Assembly: GCA_964519445.1 (NCBI GenBank)
Contig: CAZFIH010000001.1
Location: 2,144-66,143 of the forward strand
Reading direction: 5' to 3'
Length of the DNA: 64,000 nucleotides
Source of the DNA: an uncultured Bdellovibrionales bacterium
Lineage (GTDB): Bacteria; Patescibacteriota; Minisyncoccia; Moranbacterales; UBA11712
Shown here: positions 1 to 62,942 of the stretch, in pieces
Position numbering within the stretch: position 1 is the stretch's first letter
Layout: each line of letters begins with the position of its first letter
Translations under genes and position numbers: made by a program
The notes under the pieces: model-generated
What the model was told of the DNA's origin: nothing
The model's input: only the letters and a program-made list of their open reading frames with translations
The model's database searches: none

Positions 1-615
1 CCGCGAGAACTTCTTCCACTTCTTCCGTTTCTTCTTCGTCGTCTCCGCCGCGTCCGGCTCGCGCTTGGGCGGCGTTTAATCTTCCTTCAGCCGCACGCGC
101 GAAGATATCAATGGCCGCTTCGGGATCTCGCTGCGCAATTCCGCGCAATGCTTCAATTTGACCAGTCATCGTTCGCTCTTTGGCGGCTCGCACCTGCTCG
201 CGCGCTTGTTCCGGCACGCGCTCAAGAACCTGGTCAAGGACTGCCAAGTGCCGCGTCGTCGCGTCGGTCACTTCGGCTTCAAGGTCAAGCTCTCCTGTGC
301 GTCCGGCGCGTTCCTTTGCTTGGGCAAATTGTTCTTCGTACAGCCCTGCTGCTTTTTCTGTGTTTTCGCTATCTTGCCGCTCGGCAAGCGCTTGTGCTTC
401 TGCTAAACGCTCCTCGGCAAGCGCGAGATAACGCCGCGTTTTGTTGGCTTCGCCAAAGGTAAAGAATGTGCCAACGCCCTCAAAGAGGCGATCCAAAAAA
501 TAGAATGGGCTTCCCGGCGTTGTTCCCGCCGCCGGCAGGCTATTTGTCTGCGCGCTTGCCGCACCGGAGAACAAAAACACTCCGAGCACGGCGATTACAA
601 TGATTTTCTCTCTCA
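1..615 (-). CDS. DUF5667-like secreted protein (partial; runs off the window start)
   Basis: The minus-strand ATG at 615 gives MREKIIVIAVLGVFLFSGAASAQ (signal peptide), then a PGSPFYFLDRLFE motif, then an Ala/Arg-rich coiled-coil-like region. The edge-truncated ORF is absent from the track. The plus ORFs at 148-462 are antisense to it. Confidence 0.5.
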
Positions 616-1122: not shown

Positions 1123-1395
1123 TCATTTTATCTTGTCTTCGTACTCGGGGAAGTATTGGGAGATGACCGAAAGATCAAATTCCCGGAGTATTGATTCTTT
1201 CGGCTCTCGTTCCAATAAAAAATCAAAAGATTTTCTCACAAGCTCTTCCGGAGTAGCCGCGCCAGCGGCTAGTTTTTTGTAATAATCCTCACTCACACTG
1301 ACTCGGTGGGTGGTGCTGCTGCCATCTTTGTCTTCAACCACGACTTCCAAAACGGCGCTTGGCAATGATTCTATTTGCTTAACAAGTATTTTCAT
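1123..1395 (-). CDS. hypothetical protein (90 aa)
   Basis: Intact ORF in the co-directional minus-strand run. An ACATTCT/AGAATGT palindrome ends 14 nt upstream of its ATG. Confidence 0.45.
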   Translation of the reverse strand: MKILVKQIESLPSAVLEVVVEDKDGSSTTHRVSVSEDYYKKLAAGAATPEELVRKSFDFLLEREPKESILREFDLSVISQYFPEYEDKIK

Positions 1396-1612
1396 ATTTA
1401 CAGTTTACAACATTCTCACATTCTTCCTCCAGAGGCGGGCAGGCAAGAATGTTGGAATGTCGTGTCGTGTCGTGTAGTGGAGTTGGGGTTTTTGGTATTA
1501 TGAAATGCACTGGGTTTGTGATGCTTCCCCGCCGCGGGCGGGAATTACGGGATTATTTTTCTCGCTCCCCACTAAAGTTCAACCTCACTTAGCAAAGCTT
1601 TATGATTTCTCA
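1396..1612. repeat. family-1 mosaic repeat, copy A (ACATTCTCACATTCT...AGAATGT module, GTCGTGT module, CCCCGCCGCGGGCGGG hairpin plus ATTATTTT, CTAAG hairpin)
   Basis: Modules shared with copies at 2490-2635, 56741-56905 and 57660-57806. Confidence 0.65.
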
Positions 1613-1651
1613 AACTGATCCTATGCAATTCTGATCTCGGTAAAGTTCCAT

Positions 1652-2269
1652 TTATGAATCGCTGTCATCATCCCTCAATGTCTCTCTGATCATCTTGAAA
1701 AGCCTTTCAAGCTGCCTAATGCCCTCGTCCCCTTCCCTTTCGAGCCCCTTAAGGACTCGCCACGCACCCTTTTCTTTTTCCGGTTCCGCGTCAGTAACTG
1801 CCTCCATATAGTCTTTCTTGATTTTTTTTAATAAAAGGTTAAAGGCTTTATCTTCTGAAATATTTTTTATTCGGGCTTCAATGCTTCTTAATTTCCTGTA
1901 AAATTCCGTCTGTCTCTTGCTGACTGGTGATATATCCATTTCCGGAATTTCCAAAGGTTTCTGCTTTTGAATCTGTTCCAGTTCCTCTTTGGCTTCGCGC
2001 AAGATGTCCAAGCCTTCTTTCCAGTTTCTGATCATGTACGTTTCCGCTTCAGGGTTTTTGAACAACTTTATTGTTTCACCGGCAGTTTCCCGGAAACTTT
2101 TTTGTATATCGATATAGATCTCATTATCAGGTAGGCTCTTGTTCTTAAGAGCGGCGTTGATAAAACTCAAAAGCGAAAAGACTTCGGATGATAGATCTTC
2201 CATTGTTTCCGGATAGCCGGAATCAGACTGTTCAATTTTTGGCGGACCGCTCTCCCGGTCAAAAGTCAT
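1652..2269 (-). CDS. hypothetical protein (205 aa, charged/helical)
   Basis: Intact ORF, flanked on both sides by copies of the family-1 mosaic repeat. Confidence 0.45.
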   Translation of the reverse strand: MTFDRESGPPKIEQSDSGYPETMEDLSSEVFSLLSFINAALKNKSLPDNEIYIDIQKSFRETAGETIKLFKNPEAETYMIRNWKEGLDILREAKEELEQIQKQKPLEIPEMDISPVSKRQTEFYRKLRSIEARIKNISEDKAFNLLLKKIKKDYMEAVTDAEPEKEKGAWRVLKGLEREGDEGIRQLERLFKMIRETLRDDDSDS

Positions 2270-2489
2270 AGCTGGTTTTCATTTTTTGTTACTAAATGTA
2301 GCATATATCCCCCGCCGAACAAAAACCATCCGGGGAGACTGAAAAGGAATTTACTATTTAGCATAATAAGACGGCCGTATCAAAATGCTAAGTCTGGCAT
2401 AAAGAACGGAAAAGGCGGTAATTAATTGGGATTGGCAGAAAAATGCTGCGGGCATCAAAGAATGCTTAGTTGGGGAGGCTGGGAGAGGT

Positions 2490-2635
2490 GGTGGTAACGT
2501 ACCGGGTAACGTAGAATGGAACGTTACATTACCGCCTATGGCCGGGCTTCCCCGCCGCGGGCGGGGGGGGGTTGCAAGATTATTTTCCTCGCTCTCTGCT
2601 AAGATTCGACCTTAGCGAAGCCTTATAACTTATTT
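2490..2635. repeat. family-1 mosaic repeat, copy B
   Basis: GTAACGTACC module, CCCCGCCGCGGGCGGG(G7), ATTATTTTCCTCGCTC and the GCTAAGATTCGACCTTAGC hairpin. Confidence 0.65.
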
Positions 2636-2641
2636 TCAAAA

Positions 2642-3766
2642 TCATTTGTATGAGTCTGTCAGAATTTCTGAATAATTGTCCGGGTTGTGGTAACCGCCTT
2701 CAGTCGGATCATAAGCGGAAAGAGGCAGAGTGTAGCTTCGCCCGGTGGAAGGCGAAACCAGATCCGATTCCACGCCCATAATGGCATCGCTGAAATTATG
2801 CGAAGCGCGATCCTGGACGCTATTGCGATATTCCCAAGCTTCCATCAAGGGACTCGAATCATTCTCCAGATCCGCCGCAGTCGTCAGTTTGACCATATCC
2901 GCGCCGCCGACTTTTGAAGGATTGGTTATTATCGCGCTTAAAGCCACCCTTTCCAGAAGCGGCGCCCACTTGTCCCACTTGTCCGGTGTTGTCTGAAAAC
3001 CTTTGAAAACGGCAACATACTGCCCCTGGCCGTTGATAACACCGGCATCGGCTTTTATTTTCAGGGGAGTGTTCTCTTTTTTGCAGGTGAAAATTTTTGT
3101 CTTTTCTTTCCAGACATAGCCGGGAGCGGACGGATTGGCAATTTCTCCTTCTTCGGATTGTGAAATATAGTTTATGCTTGTCAGGCCGCCCATATCGGCT
3201 ATTTTTTCGATGAAAGCGTCCGGGCTGCTTTTGCCGGGCCAGCCCGAAACTGCGATCAGGGCGACGCCTATATTGCTGTCTTCAGGATTGACAATATTGA
3301 TTCCGTTTATGCTTTCATCCGTTTTCCAGCCTTCGGGAACCTTGGCGGAAAATATTTGCCCGTTGTAAGCGGCCAGCTTCAGGGAAGAATTTACATAATT
3401 TTCAGATAAGAATTCCGATCCGGCCGCGTCGTATTTTTCTGCTTCCTCCCTTGAGATGCATTTTTTTCCGTTGAAACATTCGCCCTTGCCGCAACTGCAG
3501 AATTTCACTTCATGGCTGTATTCAGGCGCGCAGCCGCAGGCCCCGATGGCGCAATTGTCCGGAAAATCTTCGGCTGACTCGCAGCAGGACGCGGCGGTAA
3601 CGGTGCCTCCCGAATCCAAACAGGCCTGTTCCCGGTCAGACGGCGTTTCAATATCCGCCGTTTTTTTATTTTCCGCCGGCATTTTTGTTTTTGAAAACTG
3701 AACTGCCGCCCAAACGGCCGTGCCGGCGATAATTATTGCAATAGCCGCCAAATAAATTTTTTTCAT
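2642..3766 (-). CDS. secreted/membrane-anchored Cys-rich protein (hypothetical)
   Basis: The ORF is trimmed to the internal start MKKIYLAAIAIIIAGTAVWA (signal anchor), because the longer start overlaps the upstream gene. An N-terminal Cys-rich module follows. Confidence 0.5.
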   Translation of the reverse strand: MKKIYLAAIAIIIAGTAVWAAVQFSKTKMPAENKKTADIETPSDREQACLDSGGTVTAASCCESAEDFPDNCAIGACGCAPEYSHEVKFCSCGKGECFNGKKCISREEAEKYDAAGSEFLSENYVNSSLKLAAYNGQIFSAKVPEGWKTDESINGINIVNPEDSNIGVALIAVSGWPGKSSPDAFIEKIADMGGLTSINYISQSEEGEIANPSAPGYVWKEKTKIFTCKKENTPLKIKADAGVINGQGQYVAVFKGFQTTPDKWDKWAPLLERVALSAIITNPSKVGGADMVKLTTAADLENDSSPLMEAWEYRNSVQDRASHNFSDAIMGVESDLVSPSTGRSYTLPLSAYDPTEGGYHNPDNYSEILTDSYK

Positions 3767-8962: not shown

Positions 8963-11716
8963 TTATTTAATTCTTATCGCACTTAGACTCTCAACTATTA
9001 AATCTGCTGCTTTTTCATTGACCCACCGAGGAGATTTTTTCTTTATCTGGTGAACAATGACATCTATATCTGCATTGATAATTTTACTCAATACTGCAAC
9101 TGATTTTTGTTTTAGTTTCGGTTTCAAGCTTGAATCTTCGATTTTTCGCAAAAGCTTGAAAAGATTTTCCAGTGTTTTTAGCTTTTTACGGAAATACTTA
9201 TAGGCAACTGTTTTCTTAATTAAGCCTAATTTATGATAATGATCAAAGTTTTTCCGGATGGCGCTGATATCTGTCCCTACTTGGAAATTCGCCTCTTTTT
9301 CAGCTGAATTCCCAGCTTCATCAGTAGCGGAAATTTTCAGTGTATATTCTCCCAAGCGCTCAAGCGAGAGGTCTATACTCTTCTCCATCCAGTCGAGTGC
9401 TTCTCCGTTTTTCTTAACTTGCCATGATTCAATACTAATTCTTGATTCGAAATCTTCGATTTTATAATCAATCATCAAAGTTCTATCATTAGTATAGCTT
9501 GTTTCCTCGGGGGAGAAAATAGTTATCATTGGCGGTTCCGTGTCCGGATTGTACAATACTTGATCATCGGCAACTTCAATTTCAAACTCTTGCACTACGC
9601 CTGCTTGGGACTCACCCGCTATTTCAGTCGAAGATTCGATCGCATTTCCTAGATCATTGGGATTTTCAGTGATTTTAGTTGTTTCTATTGTATAACTCCC
9701 TCCTTCTCCCGTTCCTTGCACCAGAATCTTATATTTTCCATTCTCCGAATTTGGGATGGTGACAAATTCATTTTCAGTATCAGATCCAGTGTAATAAGCT
9801 CCTTCGATTTCATTCACTTCTTCCCCCGTTTCAAAATTCTTCCCTATTTTCCTGCCGCTTGGAGATTCGATTTGAATGTCTGCGGGCGAAAAAACACCGA
9901 ATGTCAAAATGTCGACAACTCTGTCGAAAATATTCGCGGCGGAACAATCCTGATTCCCTGACAATTCTGTGAACACATGACATTGAGCCGCCGTGGGAAG
10001 ATCGCCGTGAGATGAATTCAGGATTATTTCTTTGTTAGACGCAATTCCTTTTGCGCTGGAGAACGGCACTGTTTCATCCCCGGGTCCGTACTCGATTCCC
10101 TGATCAGTACTGTCATCATAATAATTTTCCGGCATCCCGTGTTTCCATATGCCGTCGGTATCACTTTCAGCAACTCTTAATTTTTCTATCGTGTTGTTTC
10201 TTTCCGTGTCTGAAATGATATTCGTAAAATCAATGTTGTTTAGACGATTTAACCTACCTGAACCATTCAAAAAATCCAGGAAAGTATTTCGCGGATAATC
10301 ATTCGGGTAATTTCTCATCTCCCCGCTTGATGATTCCCTTAAATAGTCGTAATCGGGAAGGAGTTCTTTTACGGAAATCACCCTTCCCTGGATATAATCC
10401 TTCAGATTATCAAATCCCGAATGTTTTGCTTCGATTTTAAACATGCTTTCAACAATATTATCATCAAATGCTGTTCCTATTTCGCCAGCCTCCCATGTTA
10501 AATAACTTTTCGGTGCTCCTTTGTGCGGAGTTCCTAATGTAATGAGTTGATCAATGTCATTTTCATAGCTTTCTCCTTCTATATAATAGCGTGCAATAAG
10601 TCCTCCCATCGAATGAGCAACTATATCAACTTTTGGACGGCCTGTTTGATTTTTCACTTCACTGATTTTTTCTTTCAGTTCTTGCGCGGTTAGAATATTG
10701 CTGTCACGCCATTCGTATGGAAACTCAAAAAGCTTTTCTTCTTTTTCATAACCATTCTTTTCTAGAGATGCAATTAAATTATCATAAGTGTGGAGTATGG
10801 GATCGATTTTCAGTTCTCCAACTCCTCCTGGATATTTTGTAGCTGACCCCATAATCCCCGGAATGATGATCACCGGATCGGGATTCTCAATTGGGTCTTC
10901 TTCGAGCCATGGATCAAAAGTGAGCTGGCCGGTAACCGGATTTCCTTCGCCGTCTGGATTTTCATCTTCGTTGTAAGGTCCTGATTCGTCTCCCCACCAG
11001 TTATACCTCGCGTCCAATGCCGGTATGTCCGGATCAGAAGAATTTGTCGCGATTACTCCCGTATCGTTTTCCAATATTACGTTGTTCACCGCAACTGAAG
11101 TTTCTCCGGATTCAAATGTTATTCCTCTGGTATTATCACTGATTATGTTCGAATCAATCACAAATTTTGCATTTCCCAAATATTTAAGAGCAGTGCCGTT
11201 TTTCTTGAATTCACAATTTTTAACCATAATCTCACGATTTTGTTGGTTCGAAGCCTGGATTTGAACAGCCAAATAACTATAAAAAAATTGCGCGTGTTCA
11301 ATTCTGATTTTGACATCATCTGATGGAGAAATGCTAATATAATGCCAATCCCCGATTGAAGGCTTATGCGCACCTCCGTCACCGTTTGTGTCTCCGCCGT
11401 GCTCGTCATCCCTCATAGAAGTGAAAACCACGGGTTTTTCCTTCGTACCTTTAACGATAAAATCGTCTTGAATGATCAGTCTTTCCAGGCTTCCTCTGTT
11501 GAACTTTATCAGGGTTCCCTCCTCGATTGTTAAAGGTGCGGCAATAATATTCCAGCCGGATAGAATGTATGGACTGTTTTCTTTTGTCCAAGTTGTGGGC
11601 TCTGTTATTGTTCTCGCCGCAAGCCGTGTCGGCCCTTCGGCGTTCGTCAGGTCAGTAAATAGTGAGAACGCAAGAAAAAAAGTGACGAGATAGAAAATCG
11701 GTTTTACTGTTTTCAT
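8963..11716 (-). CDS. large secreted protein: right-handed beta-helix region plus lipase-like alpha/beta hydrolase domain
   Basis: Signal peptide [20 protein letters not shown], pectate-lyase/NosD-like repeat segments, and a lipase nucleophile elbow [14 protein letters not shown]. Confidence 0.55.
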
Positions 11717-11971
11717 TTCCCGAATTTAGAAATTTTATAATTCATCAAAAAACACCGCCAAAAGCAGTGAAATTAAAAAAGGCCTTCCTGAAACCCCAAG
11801 CGATATTTTTCTTTTCTTTTCATCGCCCTCCGCGAGAATGTTTACCCGTTTATTATACCAAAAACCCTGTCCAAATCCCACTTCCACTTATCCACACCTT
11901 CAAAAATTGTTTCAGAGACTGATATTTTTTGGCTTGGATTGAATTTTTTCCATTGCAGAATGCGAAAAAGT

Positions 11972-27484: not shown

Positions 27485-27580
27485 ATTGACTCGCGCCTGC
27501 CTGCCGGCAGGCAGGAATTGTGAGTGGATTAAAACGAATGGGAGCGAATGATTCGTTCCAATTCGTACGCAATTCGTTCT
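27485..27580. repeat. duplicated upstream element R1 (GCCTGCCGGCAGGC palindrome plus TTCGT repeats) before GT4 gene 26363..27484
   Basis: About 80% identical to 28715-28812. Confidence 0.6.
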
Positions 27581-28714: not shown

Positions 28715-28812
28715 AAAAACTCGCGCCTGCCGGCAGGCAGGCAGGAATTAGGAGTGAATTAGAAACGTGTGAAAACGAACTTTTCGTTCCGATTCGCGTG
28801 GAATTCGTTCTC
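28715..28812. repeat. duplicated upstream element R2 before GT4 gene 27581..28714
   Basis: The CCTGCCGGCAGG palindrome ends about 10 nt before the ATG, with AATTCGTTC repeats beyond it. Confidence 0.6.
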
Positions 28813-30651: not shown

Positions 30652-30798
30652 AAGAGATGATGCTAATCCGCCAACCTTATGCTAATCAACGAATTGCGAA
30701 TTGTGCGAATAAATTTTAGCTTTTTTGGGCGGTTTTAGCAAATGAAAAGCCCTGCCGTCGTTTGGCGGCAGGGCTTGGGTTGCCGAAAAATATCTCCC

Positions 30799-34724: not shown

Positions 34725-35416
34725 ATATATACAGTTAGCCAAAACCTGTAAGCCGGATTCTGTCCCCTCCCTTCACGAAGGAAGGGGGATAATCATTTAT
34801 CTAGCCCCGGCGTCGCCGACGGGGTCAAGCGTCTCCCCCTTTCTCTACCAAGGAAGGGGTACAGACTTGCATCAGGCAGGGTTTGCCAAGGCACGGCCGT
34901 TGCCAGCCGGCTCCAATCGCAGCTCAATACCTCACGTGAGTGAATATTGAACACCAATCGGCTTTTCACCTTTGACCGACGCGAAGCATCGGCTAGTATA
35001 GTCTCTGTGGCACTTTCCCTGAATCCATCTTTCAATGAAACCGATGGGCGTTATCCATTGCCTGCTTCCACCACTGCCTCGCAACGGGAGCTCCAATAAT
35101 CAAGCGCCAAATGACAAATAAATATCAATTACCGAAATTCTAATGACCAGAAGTTTTGGTTATCGGAAATTGGTATTTGGAAATTATTAGGTATTTGGAT
35201 TTTGAAATTTGGAATTTCCGATGCGAAGCATTGGAGGGATGTCCGGACTTTCCTCGCGGATCCTTACGAATTACGAATACGCTTCGCTCTTACGAACATA
35301 CGAACTACGAATTATCTTTATTAACATCAGAGGATGATGCGGGTTCGTAGATTCGTATTCATTCCGTAATTCGTAAGGATCCGCGCGATTATCCGGTTTT
35401 GGCTAACTGTATATAT
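34725..35416 (-). ncRNA. rnpB: RNase P RNA, about 690 nt, with expanded P3 and an inserted AT-rich hairpin
   Basis: On the minus strand: a 22-bp perfect terminal pairing ATATATACAGTTAGCCAAAACC / GGTTTTGGCTAACTGTATATAT (P1); GGATAATC/GATTATCC (P2); P4 5' strand GAGGAAAGTCCGGAC (plus 35241-35255); AAAGTGCCACAG (plus 35005-35016); P4 3' strand ACAGAATCCGGCTTA (plus 34749-34763). A consensus TTGACA-15-TATAAT promoter lies at 35417-35446. Confidence 0.75.
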
Positions 35417-51516: not shown

Positions 51517-51882
51517 CTAATTTTCATTTCCCTGCTCGAGTTCCGAACATTCCTCTTCCCAAATACGGAGGCATTTGCTTTTTGATTCGCACCAGCTGTA
51601 GCCGGCTCCAGTGAGGCATCCGTGCTCGTCCTTCTGCCCGTCAATGATCCGATTATCGGCATCATTCCCGTCGACTGGAATTCTGTTATTTTCGGGAGGC
51701 GCGACGCCTTCTTTTTCAAGCGGCGGACTGCTTTTTTCTTCCTTCGGCGAAACATCTCCTTCTTGCCGCGCTAAGAAAAATATCGTAAAAGCAAAAAGAA
51801 CGATTGCCGTGGCTGCCAATATGATTCCTATTGTCTTGCTCATAATTCGATGATTTTCTTGTTCAACAAGCTCCTTTATCAT
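51517..51882 (-). CDS. small secreted Cys-containing protein (hypothetical; probable start at 51843)
   Basis: Signal anchor MSKTIGIILAATAIVLFAF. Confidence 0.35.
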   Translation of the reverse strand: MIKELVEQENHRIMSKTIGIILAATAIVLFAFTIFFLARQEGDVSPKEEKSSPPLEKEGVAPPENNRIPVDGNDADNRIIDGQKDEHGCLTGAGYSWCESKSKCLRIWEEECSELEQGNEN

Positions 51883-51965
51883 TGTATTATATATTCATTT
51901 CAAAACAAAAACCAGCCGGAAACGAAAAGCGGTCCGGTCGAAACGACCGAACCGCGCATAGTTCC

Positions 51966-54407: not shown

Positions 54408-54803
54408 TCACCAGTTCAGGAAAGTTATCGTGAGCTGGAGTACTGTCGCGAACGCTATCCACAGAAGATAAGGGATGTTTGCATACGCGACCCAGCGCAT
54501 GCGCGGCCAAGCTGACGCCATAGCCCAAACAAGAGTCGCGAGAACGAGGATAACATCCACCGCCGCCAGCAGATTATTCCGGAGACCGAACTGGATCGGC
54601 GAGAAAGCGAAATTAAAAACGAGATTCAGCGCGAAAGGCAAAGCGACCAGCGAAGGCAGCTTCTTCCGGTACGCTTTCCAAAAAACAGCAAGGAAAGTGA
54701 CGGCAATAATCGCATAAAGCACCGTCCAAACAGGGCCGAACACCCAGGCCGGAGGAGCCCAAAAAGGCTTTGCGAGAGTTTGATACCAGTCAAAGGCTTC
54801 CAT
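54408..54803 (-). CDS. TspO/MBR family tryptophan-rich sensory protein
   Basis: WYQTLAKPFWAPPAWVFGPVWTVLY motif with five TM helices. A paralog sits at 62535..62942. Confidence 0.8.
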   Translation of the reverse strand: MEAFDWYQTLAKPFWAPPAWVFGPVWTVLYAIIAVTFLAVFWKAYRKKLPSLVALPFALNLVFNFAFSPIQFGLRNNLLAAVDVILVLATLVWAMASAWPRMRWVAYANIPYLLWIAFATVLQLTITFLNW

Positions 54804-55341: not shown

Positions 55342-55449
55342 TTCTTTTATTATATATCATATGCCTCTCCAAACAAAAACCAGCCCGGGCGGGGCTGGCG
55401 ATTTTTTCTCGGAGTACAAAAGATAATCCTAAATACGTTCGATTCCACG

Positions 55450-56611: not shown

Positions 56612-56740
56612 GGTCCATACCTCCTGGTATTCATTTTTTATAGCGTATCAGTCTGTTTTGTTTAGGTCAATCCTTTTCGATTCTATTCTAATTAGTGTAG
56701 TGGGTTGGAATGGATAATGATTGGAATATTTTCTAACGTA

Positions 56741-56905
56741 GAGTGGCACGTACCACTTCCCCGCCGCGGGTAGGGATAGCAGAATTTTTTCACAGAATGT
56801 CATACTTACATTCTCAAGTATGTAAGGATGTCGTGTTGTGTGCTGGGTTTGTGATACTCCCCCGCCGCGGGCGGGGAATACGGAATTATTTTTTCCTAAA
56901 GTTCT
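56741..56905. repeat. family-1 mosaic repeat, copy C (two GC-hairpin modules, one degenerate)
   Basis: CACGTACC; CCCCGCCGCGGGTAGGG; AGAATGT...ACATTCT; GTCGTGTTGTGTGCTGGGTTTGTGATACT; CCCCCGCCGCGGGCGGGGAATACGGAATTATTTTTT. Confidence 0.65.
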
Positions 56906-56925
56906 ATTTTTGGAGCAACTAGTTA

Positions 56926-57630: not shown

Positions 57631-57659
57631 GATTCAAATATATAAGACAATAGTTTTTT

Positions 57660-57806
57660 GTCACGTACCTTACCTGCCCGCCTTTGGCTGCGGTACGTAT
57701 CCGGTTACTTATAATTTGCCCGCCGCGGGCGGGAATCACGGAATTATTTTGCAAATAACATTCTCACATTCTCCCCCCAGAGGCGGGCAGGCAAGAATGC
57801 TGGAGG
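57660..57806. repeat. family-1 mosaic repeat, copy D
   Basis: ACGTACC...GGTACGT hairpin, GCCCGCCGCGGGCGGGAATCACGGAATTATTTTG, then a 45-nt near-identical copy of the 1409-1456 module. Confidence 0.65.
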
Positions 57807-57812
57807 GTTATT

Positions 57813-58615: not shown

Positions 58616-58652
58616 TACGACATTCTCACATTCTGCAGAATATTAGAATGTT
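58616..58652. repeat. ACATTCTCACATTCTGCAGAATATTAGAATGT palindrome (family-1 H module) between arsR and the hydrolase gene
   Basis: Inner 7-2-7 palindrome ACATTCT GC AGAATAT with outer ACATTCT/AGAATGT arms. Confidence 0.65.
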
Positions 58653-58930
58653 TTTATGAATTTCAAAAATCTTGATCCGTAAGGCGAGAGGCTGTGCTCT
58701 ACCTGGCGGCCGCGGTATTTCTTGTTGACCAAGCCGGCCTGCACCAGTTTTCTGGTATGTTCCGAAATGGTTTTGATATTGCAATCCAATGCCGCCGCAA
58801 TCCCGTCAACGGTAATCCCTGTGTTTTTTGAAACAAGGCCCAATATTTCAATTCTCCGGTGATTGGCCACGCCCTTGAAATGCCTTTCTAGTTGCTTTGG
58901 AGTTTTGCTTCTTGCTTTAACTATTTGCAT
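58643..58930 (-). CDS. ArsR/SmtB-family HTH transcriptional regulator
   Basis: Winged-helix region HRRIEILGLV...DCNIKTISEHTRKLVQAGLV, 95 aa. Confidence 0.7.
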   Translation of the reverse strand: MQIVKARSKTPKQLERHFKGVANHRRIEILGLVSKNTGITVDGIAAALDCNIKTISEHTRKLVQAGLVNKKYRGRQVEHSLSPYGSRFLKFIKTF

Positions 58931-58975
58931 TTATTAGCAGTGCTACAATAGTATCAAATACGGAAGAATATTCCA

Positions 58976-58996
58976 ACATTCTGCAGAATATAGGAA
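58976..58996. repeat. ACATTCTGCAGAATAT palindrome upstream of arsR
   Basis: The same 16-mer as at 58623-58638, about 46 nt upstream of the arsR ATG. Confidence 0.65.
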
Positions 58997-59230
58997 TATA
59001 TTCTATTTGCTTCGCCAATCTCTAATTTGTATTCCTCCTCTTATTCTTGCGACTTTCACTTTCTGTCTTTCTCGCCAGCCGAGCTCGCGGAGCATTTCAA
59101 TTGGAAGGGTGATGCCCAGAGAACTCGCGCCGATTCGGGATATTTTTCGGATGTTTCGATTTTGAATTTTCCGCCTCGCCATAAAATAGGTATTTAAATA
59201 TGTATTTTAATAAGTATTTCTATTTTTATC

Positions 59231-60231
59231 CTATCCCACCAAGAGATTCGTGACAATCTTTATCATCTTATCCTTTTCTTTTGGGTCGCTGATGGCGATG
59301 AGAAGCGCCAGGGCTGTGAGAGCGTTGTCGTTGATTTTCCGCTCCCCGCTTTTTTTTAGGAGATAAAATTATTCCGGTCTAAAAAATAAACAAACAAAAA
59401 CGAACCGATTCGCTTGTTGCCGTCAACGAACGGATGGTCCTTGATCACCAAATACAAAAGATGGGCCGCTTTTTCTTCGAGGGAAGAATAAAGCTCCTTT
59501 TTTCCAAACGTTTGGCAGAGATTTCCTACGATGGCTTCAAGTTTATTTCCAGATTCTTGTCCGAACAAATCACTCGCTTCCTTTTTGGCGGTGAGCTTTT
59601 TCTTTATTTCGGCGATAACTGATTTGGCGTCTTTGTATTTCAGAATAAATTTCCCCTTGGCCTTTTTTGAGAGATGTAATTTTTCCTTATCATACTTTTC
59701 AAGAAGACTAAGTGTCTTTGAATAATTCTCAAGCAGATTCAATATTTCTTTCTCCTGCCCTTTGAGGAGCTTATGACTTGATTTTTCTCGGAGAAATAAG
59801 ATTGTTTCCCGCAAGTCTTCGAATTTATTCTTTTCCTGCAACAGTCGCTTTTCGTTAATCGTGTAGCCTTTGATCAAATGCTGTTTCAGTGTTTTCGTCG
59901 CCCAAATGCGGAATTGGGTAGCTCTTTTGGAGTTCACCCTATAGCCAACAGAAATAATCATATCTAAGTTATACATGTTCATCTTTCTTATTTTCCCATC
60001 AGCTGCAACCTGTTCCAAAATGGAACAGGTTGATTTTCTATCTAATTCGCCTGTTTTATAAATATTATTTATATGCTTAACAATAGCGGGACGATTCACA
60101 CTAAAAACTTTTGCGATGGAATGAGCGTCTAACCAAACAGAACCCTTTTCAAGTTTTACTTGAATTTCTGGTCCGCTTGGGGAGCGATAAATCACAATCT
60201 CTCCTTTTTTTATTTCCTTCTTTCGTGCCAT
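59231..60231 (-). pseudogene. RhuM-like N-terminal domain plus Fic/Doc-family domain, interrupted by a stop and -1 frame change at an A8 tract
   Basis: Frame A reads HPFVDGNKRIGSFLFVYFLDRNNFIS then TAA at 59356-59358. The -1 frame continues ...KKSGERKINDNALTALALLIAISDPKEKDKMIKIVTNLLVG, which resembles the Doc C-terminal helices. Confidence 0.55.
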
Positions 60232-62534: not shown

Positions 62535-62942
62535 TTAGTTCCAATTCAAATAGGTTATCGTGAATTGAAGGCCGGTAGCGAAAATGACCCACAGGAGGTA
62601 TGGGATATTCGCAAGCGCGATCCAGCGGGCGTGCGGCCAAATCGCAACCATTGCCCAAATGAGGGTGCCGAGGACGAGGAGTATGTCAATCGCTGCCAAA
62701 AGATTGCTTTGAAGCCGGAATTGAATCGGAGAGAAGGCGAAATTAAAAATGAGATTCAGGATGAACGGAAGAAGAACCAGAAAGGACACGCGGCCTTTCC
62801 AAAATAAATACACCGCGTATCCGAACGAAACGGCAATGATTATGTACAAAGCGGTCCAAACCGGACCGAAAATCCACGCCGGTGGCGCCCAGGAGGGTTT
62901 TATAAGTTCTTGATACCAATTGAAAGTGTCCATATTGTTCAT
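62535..62942 (-). CDS. TspO/MBR family protein (second copy)
   Basis: WYQELIKPSWAPPAWIFGPVWTALY motif. Roughly 60% identical to 54408..54803. Confidence 0.8.
   Translation of the reverse strand: MNNMDTFNWYQELIKPSWAPPAWIFGPVWTALYIIIAVSFGYAVYLFWKGRVSFLVLLPFILNLIFNFAFSPIQFRLQSNLLAAIDILLVLGTLIWAMVAIWPHARWIALANIPYLLWVIFATGLQFTITYLNWN

What the first reader, a model, noticed from the sequence alone, without database searches (positions are those of the whole stretch)
1396..2641. Mosaic structured repeat (family 1) flanking gene 1652..2269; copies again at 56.7-59.0 kb
Five copies of an exact GC hairpin CCCCGCCGCGGGCGGG (6-bp stem, GCG loop) each followed by (G)AATNACGGRATTATTTT occur at 1527, 2550, 56757 (degenerate), 56867 and 57718, always in the same orientation. 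They combine in different orders with other shared modules. These are ACATTCTCACATTCT...AGAATGTTGGAATGT (1409-1456, near-identical to 57755-57806), GTCGTGTYGTGT...CTGGGTTTGTGAT, ACGTACC hairpins, and a CTAAG...CTTAG hairpin. The elements sit between co-directional minus-strand genes, with the hairpin-plus-T-run facing the plus strand, antisense to the genes. Copies A and B start 40 nt and 7 nt after the stop codons of two consecutive genes. Module shuffling at this level is typical of recombining small mobile or structured-RNA families. These may be antisense small-RNA genes, 3'-UTR elements, or a new repeat class.
Basis: seen in the sequence. Interest (0 to 1): 0.7.

Follow-up and report, generated by a model that had tools for sequence, protein, structure and literature searches.

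The report
Operator palindromes plus GC mini-hairpins
The "mosaic repeat" is real, but it is mostly the control DNA of a few accessory genes in a candidate-phyla-radiation bacterium: a repressor binding site conserved across that whole lineage, combined with a small GC-rich hairpin cassette whose role is still unsettled.

Summary

The window comes from a Patescibacteria (CPR) genome.

The ACATTCT...AGAATGT module and its GTCGTGT flank are not mobile. They form the 32-bp palindromic operator of a small ArsR-like winged-helix regulator encoded at 58643-58930. In 80 other species this palindrome lies upstream of the orthologous gene in 70 of 75 loci and at its stop codon in 71 of 78. It sits just before a -10 box. 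It changes together with the regulator's recognition helix.

The GC hairpin with its GGAAT-box and T-run tail is lineage-restricted:
- Five copies are in the window and one diverged copy is in an 87%-identity relative.
- No copy was found in the GTDB representative genomes, and none in viral contigs. The four metagenome pattern hits are unrelated coding sequence.
- Four of the five copies lie within 100 nt of an operator.

Similar GC hairpins are presence/absence insertions at the centres of operator-like palindromes in five species, counting this one.

The hairpin is not a canonical terminator on either strand, matches no Rfam family and shows no usable covariation. Its function remains inferred: leader or intercistronic hairpin, REP-like spread, or antisense RNA end.

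The parts
58643..58930 (-). Gene for a 95-aa ArsR/SmtB-like winged-helix regulator, the proposed binder of the ACATTCT palindromes.
   Evidence: Pfam HTH_5, HTH_20 and MarR. NCBIfam ArsR/SmtB subfamily, below cut-off. More than 2500 homologues, the best 120 listed at 67-85% identity, with CPR names where a name is given.
58620..58651 (.). Type-1 operator palindrome ACATTCTCACATTCT-GC-AGAATATTAGAATGT. It overlaps the last codons (ACA TTC TAA) of the regulator gene and precedes the hydrolase gene.
   Evidence: The same position relative to the stop codon is seen in most of 70 species.
58968..58999 (.). Type-1 operator palindrome upstream of the regulator gene (the autoregulatory site).
   Evidence: An upstream palindrome is found in 70 of 75 species loci.
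1410..1460 (.). Type-1 operator split by a 21-nt GC-rich insert (TCCTCCAGAGGCGGGCAGGCA). It lies 14 nt upstream of the ATG of the 90-aa gene 1123..1395.
57758..57808 (.). Second copy of the split type-1 operator, 94% identical to 1410-1460, with a degenerate outer right box.
56800..56831 (.). Variant palindrome TCATACTTACATTCT-CA-AGTATGTAAGGATGT lying between hairpins C and D.
   Evidence: Near-identical counterparts occur in L040, L043, L035 and L041.
1510..1560 (+). Hairpin copy A: CTGGGTTTGTGATGCTT, stem-loop 1527-1542, tail AATTACGGGATTATTTTT.
   Evidence: 71 bits.
1561..1612 (+). Extension shared by copies A and B (CTCGCTCC... plus the CTAAAG...CTTAG small hairpin at 1572-1592). It ends 40 nt from the stop codon of gene 1652..2269.
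   Evidence: A and B are 73% identical over 90 columns.
1493..1501 (+). Extended -10-like TGGTATTAT on the + strand, 25 nt upstream of hairpin A. It lies in a segment absent from copy D.
   Evidence: Sequence. The 19-mer is 17/19 identical to the segment at 11849-11867 on the - strand, which carries an extended -10 (TGGTATAAT).
2533..2616 (+). Hairpin copy B: stem-loop 2550-2566, variant tail ending ATTATTTT at 2586, GCTAAG...CTTAGC hairpin at 2598-2616. The shared sequence runs on to 7 nt from the stop codon at 2642.
   Evidence: 50.7 bits.
2494..2530 (+). Three TAACGTA-type boxes at a 12-nt period.
   Evidence: Sequence. Tandem TACGTA boxes occur at 7 sites in 6 loci, against 1 expected.
56742..56793 (+). 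Hairpin copy C: degenerate stem 56759-56775 and tail ATAGCAGAATTTTTT.
   Evidence: 58.3 bits.
56843..56896 (+). Hairpin copy D: CTGGGTTTGTGATACTC, stem-loop 56860-56876, tail AATACGGAATTATTTTTT.
   Evidence: 67.3 bits.
57701..57752 (+). Hairpin copy E: stem-loop 57718-57733 and tail AATCACGGAATTATTTTG.
   Evidence: 62.5 bits.
57663..57698 (.). ACGTACC...GGTACGT inverted repeat with a 22-nt GC-rich centre (TTACCTGCCCGCCTTTGGCTGC). The centre is inverted relative to the insert of the split operator at 57777-57795.
   Evidence: (pair I2: 19 nt, 89% complementary).
27495..27534 (+). Related GC hairpin GCCTGCCTGCCGGCAGGCAG followed by GAAT-type boxes. In gene sense it lies 11 nt upstream of the ATG of a GT4 glycosyltransferase gene.
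   Evidence: (family D5). The same 20-mer occurs in L046, L009 and L069.
28725..28764 (+). Paralogous copy of the previous element, upstream of the neighbouring GT4 gene.

Best explanation
These are not copies of one mobile element or one small-RNA gene. They are the intergenic control regions of a few accessory genes in a Patescibacteria genome, assembled from a small set of cis elements.

**(1) The operator (well supported).** The ACATTCT...AGAATGT module, with the GTCGTGT-type sequence that follows it, is the operator of the ArsR-like winged-helix regulator encoded at 58643-58930. Each arm carries two heptad boxes. The palindrome covers the -35 to -12 region of the adjacent promoter, so the bound regulator would block RNA polymerase. 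One copy autoregulates the regulator gene. A second copy overlaps the regulator's own last codons and controls the next gene. Further copies mark other targets. Direct binding and repression are inferred, not shown.

**(2) The GC hairpin (partly supported).** The hairpin (RCTT-CCCGCC-GCG-GGCGGG) with its tail of two GGAAT-type boxes and a T run is a discrete cassette. It and its relatives (CCTGCC..GGCAGG; TGCCYGCCCGCC..GGAGG) occur as presence/absence insertions in or near the dyad centre of operator-like palindromes, or beside GAAT boxes. In this genome the cassette has been copied along with the operator regions.

**(3) Likely action of the hairpin (inferred).** I think it most likely acts in cis as a stable stem-loop. 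It would sit near the 5' end or in the intercistronic part of transcripts from the regulated promoters, affecting RNA stability or polymerase pausing. It is not a terminator and not an independent RNA gene.
For: **Organism.** Bacterial RNase P RNA. The closest proteins come from Parcubacteria/Patescibacteria genomes.

**Operator.**
- The palindrome lies upstream of the regulator gene in 70 of 75 species loci and downstream in 71 of 78. About 45 extra copies lie within 10 kb of the gene.
- 67 of 74 upstream palindromes are followed within 22 nt by a -10-like hexamer. The downstream palindrome usually starts inside the last codons, ACA TTC TRA.
- Regulators with ANPKTIGEH instead of CNIKTISEH pair with ACAAACT-type palindromes (L064). 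A second such regulator, the L067 paralogue at 10921-11226, is flanked by ACAAACT-type palindromes.
- The relative L005 has the same palindrome on both sides of a 60%-identical orthologue.

**Hairpin as a cassette.**
- Alignment A3 shows TCTCTAATTCGCGC-[+/- about 20-nt GC hairpin]-GAATAGGCGAATAG after the operator in L060 (both forms), L067, L078 and L042.
- Type-1 palindromes are interrupted by GC inserts of 21, 32, 41 and 20 nt in the window, L050, L052 and L046.
- Four of the five hairpins lie within 100 nt of an operator. The nominal binomial P is 3e-4.
- A diverged copy in L005 (E = 0.0024-0.01) has the same orientation and position, about 40 nt after a stop codon.

**Not a terminator.** The scans list these hairpins on neither strand, whereas canonical terminators exist nearby at 56289-56266 and 55399-55379.
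Against: - No binding or expression data exist. The hairpin's function is inference only.
- The five copies are recent duplicates. Their shared tail and their nearness to operators could reflect copying of whole intergenic segments rather than function, so the P value assumes an independence that does not hold.
- Copy B has no operator nearby.
- Homology of the window cassette to the L060/L067 hairpins is weak (13.5 bits, E = 3.5) and rests on architecture.
- A systematic scan found GC inserts at palindrome centres only slightly more often than background (5 versus 2 at score 10 or more).
- GAAT-box spacing in the tail varies from N3 to N5 among copies, which is unusual for a protein site.
- All family-1 copies are antisense to the genes here and in L005, but sense in L060/L067.
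- The 21-nt insert should weaken a dimeric operator unless phasing or cruciform extrusion compensates.
Confidence: 0.55

Rival explanations
1. REP/MITE-like selfish mini-palindrome. The GC hairpin with its tail is a non-autonomous element mobilised in trans, for example by a Y1/HUH-type transposase encoded elsewhere. That enzyme would recognise a hairpin on one DNA strand plus adjacent bases. The single orientation would then reflect the replication strand, not transcription.
For: - It is a discrete unit with presence/absence polymorphism.
- All five copies, plus the two D5-type copies, have one orientation in a window where nearly all genes share a strand.
- The exact family is restricted to this lineage.
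- The GC insert of the split operator is 95% conserved between the window and L005, while the surrounding arms have decayed. That pattern fits recent spread.
Against: - No transposase or integrase appears among the 58 window ORFs scanned.
- No target-site duplication or terminal inverted repeats are evident.
- The copies are clustered next to operators rather than dispersed.
- No inverted pairs of the BIME type occur.
- The identical 20-mer CCTGCCTGCCGGCAGGCAGG is present in distant species. That looks more like selection or convergence than a species-specific REP family.
Confidence: 0.2
2. Antisense small RNAs. Short + strand transcripts start just upstream of the hairpin, under control of the adjacent operator, and end at the hairpin and T run. 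They would act on the 3' ends of the convergent - strand genes.
For: - The T run lies on the + strand in all copies.
- Copy A has a good extended -10 (TGGTATTAT, 1493-1501) 25 nt upstream of the hairpin.
- In copies A and D the + strand order is operator, then spacer, then hairpin, then T run.
- In L078 the operator-linked promoter also faces a convergent gene and a terminator.
Against: - The T run begins 11-16 nt after the stem, so termination should be inefficient.
- The promoter-like insert is present only in copy A.
- Copies B, C and E have no consistent + strand promoter.
- The CTGGGTTTGTGAT 'seed' is shared by only two copies.
- There is no Rfam match and no covariation.
- Folding z-scores are weak.
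Confidence: 0.1
3. A 3'-UTR or intercistronic stabiliser, or a non-canonical terminator, for the upstream - strand gene. This is the role long known for REP hairpins in E. coli operons.
For: - Elements begin 7-40 nt after stop codons in copies A and B.
- The L005 copy begins 39 nt after a stop codon.
- Each of four co-directional genes is followed by one hairpin copy.
- The hairpin is very stable: 6-7 G-C pairs.
Against: - In gene sense no U run follows the stem.
- The genome does use canonical terminators.
- The D5-type relatives sit 11 nt before a start codon, not after a stop.
- In L060/L067 the hairpin lies between a promoter-like -10 and the next gene.
Confidence: 0.1
4. No function. The similarity is simply the residue of segmental duplication or recombination between two regulatory regions of one genomic island.
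For: - Gene order differs sharply from the relative. In L005 the 374-aa gene is directly followed by RhuM/Fic, whereas these two genes are 56 kb apart in the window, each beside a repeat cluster.
- The intergenic region at 57631-57812 and the one at 1396-1651 together reconstitute the module order of the region at 56612-56925.
Against: - The stems are perfectly kept in four of five copies while the flanks diverge.
- A homologous element persists in L005.
- Similar architecture occurs in distant species.
Confidence: 0.05

Closest known systems
Autoregulated ArsR/SmtB-family winged-helix repressors and their dyad operators (for example SmtB, CzrA, HlyU, BigR)
   Same: It is a small winged-helix protein. 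The weak best matches are to ArsR-family structures 2kko/3gw2 and to HlyU 4k2e, and to the NCBIfam ArsR/SmtB subfamily. An inverted-repeat operator overlaps the regulator's own promoter.
   Different: - It scores below the curated family cut-offs (44 versus 55 bits).
- The operator is 15-2-15 with two heptad boxes per arm.
- A second operator overlaps the gene's own last codons in most species.
- The family is confined to Patescibacteria in the searches made.
- No effector or metal site has been identified.
- I found no description of it in three library searches.
REP / BIME elements of enterobacteria and pseudomonads
   Same: Both are short GC-rich extragenic palindromes found between co-directional genes, combined with other short motifs in a mosaic, and lineage-specific. 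REPs can stabilise upstream mRNA (from established knowledge).
   Different: All copies here share one orientation, with no inverted pairs. Only five copies are seen, clustered beside operators. There is no GTAG-type head and no RAYT gene in the window. Genome-wide copy number is unknown.
GC clusters of yeast mitochondrial DNA (recalled from memory, not tested)
   Same: Both are short GC-rich palindromic cassettes that appear as insertions in AT-rich intergenic DNA, with presence/absence polymorphism.
   Different: The host and sequence are unrelated. No target duplication is seen here. This is an analogy only.
Intrinsic (Rho-independent) terminators
   Same: Both have a GC-rich stem-loop with a T run on the same strand.
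   Different: The T run starts 11-16 nt after the stem instead of 0-2 nt. It lies on the strand antisense to all neighbouring genes. It was not called by the terminator scan.

Membership tests
Transcription-factor operator of the adjacent winged-helix regulator | Dyad-symmetric site located next to the regulator gene across many genomes | tested here: met
   70 of 75 loci upstream and 71 of 78 downstream, in 80 species. L005 also has it.
Transcription-factor operator of the adjacent winged-helix regulator | Site overlaps core promoter elements | tested here: met
   67 of 74 upstream palindromes have a -10-like hexamer within 22 nt downstream, most at offsets of 0-5 nt.
Transcription-factor operator of the adjacent winged-helix regulator | Operator sequence co-varies with the recognition helix | tested here: met
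   L064 (ANPKTIGEH) pairs with ACAAACT-type palindromes. The L067 paralogue at 10921-11226 has the same helix and the same palindrome type. L034 (GNIKTLAEH) pairs with a GCTTTCT type. The number of cases is small.
Transcription-factor operator of the adjacent winged-helix regulator | Direct binding by the protein | not testable with these tools
   Needs EMSA, DAP-seq or ChIP.
Intrinsic terminator | GC-rich stem-loop | tested here: met
   Six to seven G-C pairs and a GCG loop.
Intrinsic terminator | U/T tract starting 0-2 nt after the stem on the transcribed strand | tested here: not met
   On the + strand the T run starts 11-16 nt after the stem. The - strand has no T run. The hairpins are absent from the scan output.
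REP / BIME | Short imperfect extragenic palindrome | tested here: met
   All five copies are intergenic.
REP / BIME | Many copies dispersed around the genome | tested here: inconclusive
   Five copies lie in 3 of the 43 intergenic regions of 50 nt or more in the 64 kb. The rest of the genome was not retrievable.
REP / BIME | Copies in alternating orientation (inverted pairs) | tested here: not met
   All copies are on the + strand, including the adjacent pair C and D.
REP / BIME | Cognate RAYT (Y1 transposase) gene | tested here: inconclusive
   None among 58 window ORFs scanned against Pfam. The gene could lie elsewhere in the genome.
MITE | Terminal inverted repeats and target-site duplication | tested here: not met
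   No TIRs or duplications flank the hairpin cassette. The L060 sites with and without the hairpin differ by a clean 20-nt insertion with no duplication.
Integron attC site | R''/R' core sites (RYYYAAC...GTTRRRY) and a nearby integron integrase | tested here: not met
   No such core sites are seen on reading the elements. No integrase is present in the window.
Known RNA family (Rfam) | Match to a curated covariance model | tested here: not met
   Only chance hits at E > 1 in both regions. At gathering threshold the window yields only RNase P RNA and tRNAs.
Structured RNA supported by covariation | Compensatory changes in the stem across homologues | tested here: inconclusive
   Stems are identical in four copies and copy C is degenerate. 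The L005 copy has one C-G to U-A change, plus one mismatch. There are too few sequences.

The most novel reading that the evidence does not exclude
GC-rich mini-hairpins (YCCGCC-loop-GGMGGR and CCTGCC..GGCAGG) are a Patescibacteria-wide insertional cassette. It would land in or near the dyad centre of operator palindromes in steps of about whole helical turns (20, 21, 22, 32, 41 nt). Insertion would convert simple operators into cruciform-prone or phase-shifted sites and so rewire the regulon of a lineage-wide winged-helix repressor. That would be a new kind of very small mobile or templated element with regulatory consequences.
Probability: 0.12. Interest if true: 0.8.

Novelty: new variant of a known kind. 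Interest (0 to 1): 0.5.

Why it matters
Almost nothing is known about transcription control in the candidate phyla radiation, whose members are mostly uncultured and carry few regulators.

This analysis gives a concrete and testable regulator-operator pair. The regulator is a 95-aa winged-helix protein. Its operator is a 32-bp palindrome that brackets its gene in about 90% of 80 species examined. A simple sequence rule now allows its targets to be found in any Patescibacteria genome.

The analysis also shows that small GC hairpins repeatedly interrupt these operators. That may be a mechanism of regulatory change, or a new mini-repeat class.

For genome annotation there is a practical point. 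Repeated intergenic 'mosaics' in these small genomes may be regulatory vocabulary rather than mobile DNA.

Tried and rejected
- **Public collections.** An exact-pattern scan for hairpin plus tail found nothing in the GTDB representative genomes and nothing in viral contigs. The four metagenome hits are unrelated. L001 and L003 are coding: the pattern encodes an IIPARGGS motif at the start of a gene. L002 matches over the same stretch and looks similar, and L004 is a chance match.
- **Source contig.** It could not be fetched. Cluster look-up gave no names.
- **Small ORFs.** Those in the intergenic regions are frame-inconsistent between copies, so they were rejected as coding.
- **Rfam.** No match at permissive thresholds.
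- **Whole-region RNA folds.** Unremarkable z-scores.
- **Integron attC, CRISPR and canonical terminator.** All rejected on sequence features.
- **Relatives of the 374-aa gene (L005, L007, L008).** They lack element B. The intergenic region there is a short ordinary promoter region.
- **Relatives of the methyltransferase.** At 52-56% identity and on short contigs, they are too distant for footprinting.
- **Covariance model beyond L005.** Hits are weak, AT-rich and probably chance.
- **Other palindromes.** The idea that the CTAAAG..CTTTAG and GTACGT..ACGTAC palindromes are also lineage-wide was not supported (counts at expectation). Only tandem TACGTA boxes were enriched.
- **GC inserts at palindrome centres.** A general enrichment was not significant in a systematic scan.
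- **Viral contigs.** The operator pattern is absent there too.
Full report

Yes. CCCCGCCGCGGGCGGG, allowing up to two mismatches, occurs five times. All five are on the + strand, at 1527, 2550, 56759, 56860 and 57718, against 0.04 expected.

- The stem has six or seven G-C pairs and a GCG loop.
- Copies A, D and E are followed by AATNACGGRATTATTTT. Copies B and C carry variant tails that still end in ATTATTTT or AATTTTTT.
The split inverted repeat at 1409-1456 is 94% identical to 57757-57804. CTGGGTTTGTGAT is shared by copies A and D. An extension of about 90 nt, including a CTAAG hairpin, is shared by copies A and B.
- All flanking genes are on the - strand.
- A sensitive self-BLAST and a covariance model of the five copies find no further copy in the 64 kb.

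**2. What is the genome?**

The window carries a bacterial class A RNase P RNA and three tRNAs. Its G+C content is about 44%.

The proteins next to the repeats have their closest relatives in Parcubacteria/Patescibacteria genomes from metagenomes. A 100%-identical protein sits on a 66,660-bp NCBI contig, presumably the source, but that contig could not be fetched.

The repeats lie among accessory genes:
- a 90-aa and a 205-aa protein of unknown function;
- a 374-aa secreted-looking protein;
- a methyltransferase and an alpha/beta hydrolase;
- a small winged-helix regulator;
- a MazE/AbrB-like 59-aa ORF;
- a RhuM/Fic gene.

No transposase or integrase appears among the 58 window ORFs scanned.

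**3. The ACATTCT module is an operator.**

Two compact versions of the inverted repeat, ACATTCTCACATTCT-GC-AGAATATTAGAATGT at 58620-58651 and a similar one at 58968-58999, bracket the 95-aa ArsR-like regulator gene at 58643-58930. The relative L005, whose orthologous regulator is 60% identical, has the same palindrome on both sides of its gene.

The regulator family is large. More than 2500 homologues were found, and the best 120 listed are 67-85% identical to the query.

I fetched 80 loci from different Patescibacteria species. The results were:
- The 32-bp palindrome lies within 160 nt upstream of the gene in 70 of 75 loci with enough sequence.
- It lies at or just after the stop codon in 71 of 78 loci.
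- About 45 more copies lie within 10 kb.
- Of 74 upstream palindromes, 67 are followed within 22 nt by a -10-like hexamer, mostly at 0-5 nt. The right arm therefore occupies the -35 to -12 region.
- The downstream palindrome usually begins inside the last codons, ACA TTC TRA, encoding Thr-Phe-stop. It is followed by the next gene's -10.
- Regulators with an altered recognition helix (ANPKTIGEH in L064) pair with an altered palindrome of ACAAACT type. The L067 paralogue at 10921-11226 shows the same pairing.

This is the signature of a repressor and its operator. Binding itself remains untested.

The degenerate palindrome between hairpins C and D (56800-56831) has near-identical counterparts in L040, L043, L035 and L041.

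Three library searches found no description of this system. The closest solved structures are ArsR-family proteins and HlyU, at weak E-values.

**4. The GC hairpin cassette.**

Outside the window, the covariance model finds one credible copy. It is L005:18865-18916, with E = 0.0024-0.01. It lies antisense to the genes and about 40 nt after a stop codon, as in the window. Its stem is GUCCGCC/GGAGGAU, which has one compensatory pair and one mismatch.

Exact-pattern scans found no copy in 185,579 representative genomes and none in viral contigs. The four metagenome hits are unrelated sequence: coding in L001 and L003, with L002 similar over the same stretch, and a chance match in L004. The exact family is therefore narrow.

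The kind of element is wider.
- After the operator, several species carry a second conserved element, TCTCTAATTCGCGCGAATAGGCGAATAG.
- In L060 (one of two copies) and in L067 (both copies), a roughly 20-nt GC hairpin sits exactly between TAATTCGCGC and GAATAGG. The hairpins are GCTTGCCCGCCCCCCGGAGG and GCTTGTCCGCCTCCGGCGGA. L060's other copy, L078 and L042 lack it.
- The window cassette has the same layout: TTTGTGATGCTT, then the hairpin, then AATTACGGGATTA, then a T run. The sequence match, however, is weak (13.5 bits).
- Operators themselves are interrupted near their centre by GC-rich inserts. The inserts measure 21 nt in the two split copies here, 32 nt in L050, 41 nt in L052 and 20 nt in L046.
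- The L046 insert, CCTGCCTGCCGGCAGGCAGG, is the same 20-mer found 11 nt upstream of two glycosyltransferase start codons in the window (27495 and 28725). It also occurs in L009 and L069.
- The ACGTACC inverted repeat at 57663-57698 carries a 22-nt GC centre related to the split-operator insert.
- In the window, four of the five hairpins lie within 100 nt of an operator-type palindrome. The nominal P is 3e-4, and the copies are not independent.

**5. What the hairpin is not.**

- It is not a canonical terminator. On the + strand the T run starts 11-16 nt after the stem. On the - strand, the gene-sense strand, no T run follows. The scan lists canonical terminators nearby but not these hairpins.
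- It matches no Rfam family.
- The intergenic regions do not fold markedly better than shuffles, with z from -0.9 to -3.4.
- The small ORFs across it are not conserved in frame.
- It has no attC-like core sites, terminal inverted repeats or target duplications.

**6. Most likely mechanism.**

*Shown.* The repeats are real. The palindrome is associated lineage-wide with the regulator gene and with promoters. The GC hairpins show presence/absence polymorphism.

*Inferred.* The regulator represses by occluding promoters at intact palindromes, including its own.

For the hairpin I favour a cis role as a stable stem-loop in transcripts from these control regions. Three observations fit this:
- In gene sense, each family-1 hairpin is preceded at 8-12 nt by an AATAAT, TTTAAT or TCTAAT hexamer.
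- The D5-type relatives lie between a box array and a start codon.
- In L060 and L067 the hairpin lies between a TCTAAT -10 and the next gene.

This arrangement would put the stem near the 5' end of the RNA, where it could act as a stabiliser or pause element. I put this specific reading at about one in three.

The broader statement is that the mosaic is regulatory vocabulary plus a hairpin cassette, not one mobile or sRNA family. I put that at about 0.55.

The rivals are listed with their tests: REP-like selfish spread, antisense sRNA, 3'-UTR stabiliser, and neutral residue of duplication.

**7. Novelty and verdict.**

The operator-regulator pair belongs to a known kind (ArsR-type autoregulation). 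Its unusual features are its architecture and its lineage-wide reach, and I found no published description.

The hairpin cassette resembles REP/BIME elements in form. It fails the inverted-pair feature, and its copy number and transposase could not be assessed. Its repeated position at or near dyad centres is unusual.

Overall this is a new variant of known kinds, of moderate interest.

Noticed in passing
window 58620-58999; loci L009-L088: A 95-aa ArsR-like regulator is bracketed by 32-bp palindromes in about 90% of 80 Patescibacteria species. The downstream palindrome overlaps the gene's last codons, ACA TTC TRA. A single Cys (C50) is nearly invariant. Downstream genes vary; by eye they include TspO, MsrA/MsrB, NUDIX, DNA glycosylase and enolase.
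   Followed up: yes
window 27535-27580, 28775-28812, 30697-30720, 35351-35375: Arrays of CGAAT/ATTCG boxes lie upstream of three GT4 glycosyltransferase genes and near the RNase P RNA gene. They are related to a conserved element, TCTCTAATTCGCGCGAATAGGCGAATAG, seen in 10 other species. That element also precedes a glycosyltransferase in L035 and an ArsR paralogue in L044. This may be a second regulon.
   Followed up: partly
window 2347-2545: About 200 nt of intergenic sequence between hairpin B and a decayed terminator/promoter module has no ORF and no known match. It holds a perfect 10-nt inverted repeat, AGGCGGTAAT / ATTACCGCCT, at 2413-2422 and 2528-2537.
   Followed up: no
window 2295-2331, 51881-51917, 55349-55385: A repeated module consists of a terminator T run followed by a TATATAAT-type promoter. 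The copy at 2295-2331 appears to have lost the 5' arm of its terminator stem.
   Followed up: partly
window 59183-60231: The RhuM/Fic gene (291 aa) is shorter than its L005 counterpart (324 aa). The 170 nt after its stop may be a frameshifted remnant.
   Followed up: no
window 59003-59182: An unlisted 59-aa MazE/AbrB-like ORF lies directly upstream of the regulator gene (Pfam MazE_antitoxin, 23.5 bits against a 24.7-bit cut-off). A MazE-like gene also follows the 382-aa homologue P0004 on another contig.
   Followed up: partly
window 54408-54803 and 62535-62942: There are two TspO/MBR paralogues, 70% identical over 240 nt. By eye, a TspO gene lies immediately downstream of the regulator in L013, L017, L020, L036 and L041.
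   Followed up: partly
L060:10270-10340: A run of eight tandem TAACATTC units, with a ninth after a short interruption, directly abuts the operator downstream of the regulator gene. This is an expansion of one operator box.
   Followed up: no
window 2642-3766 versus 59356-60231; L005:10001-12217: In the relative the 374-aa gene is directly followed by RhuM/Fic. In the window these genes are 56 kb apart, each beside one of the two repeat clusters. That suggests a rearrangement with breakpoints in the repeat regions.
   Followed up: no
window 1-615: The listed + strand ORF 148..462 looks spurious. A - strand gene with a good promoter and its start at 615 runs off the window start.
   Followed up: partly
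L005:18107-19800: AAATAATTACGTAWTTAATTAC motifs repeat on both sides of the Ham1-like gene, and the upstream regions of two consecutive genes are homologous. A reverse transcriptase, a LexA-fused methylase and a Vsr gene lie nearby, so this is a variable island.
   Followed up: no
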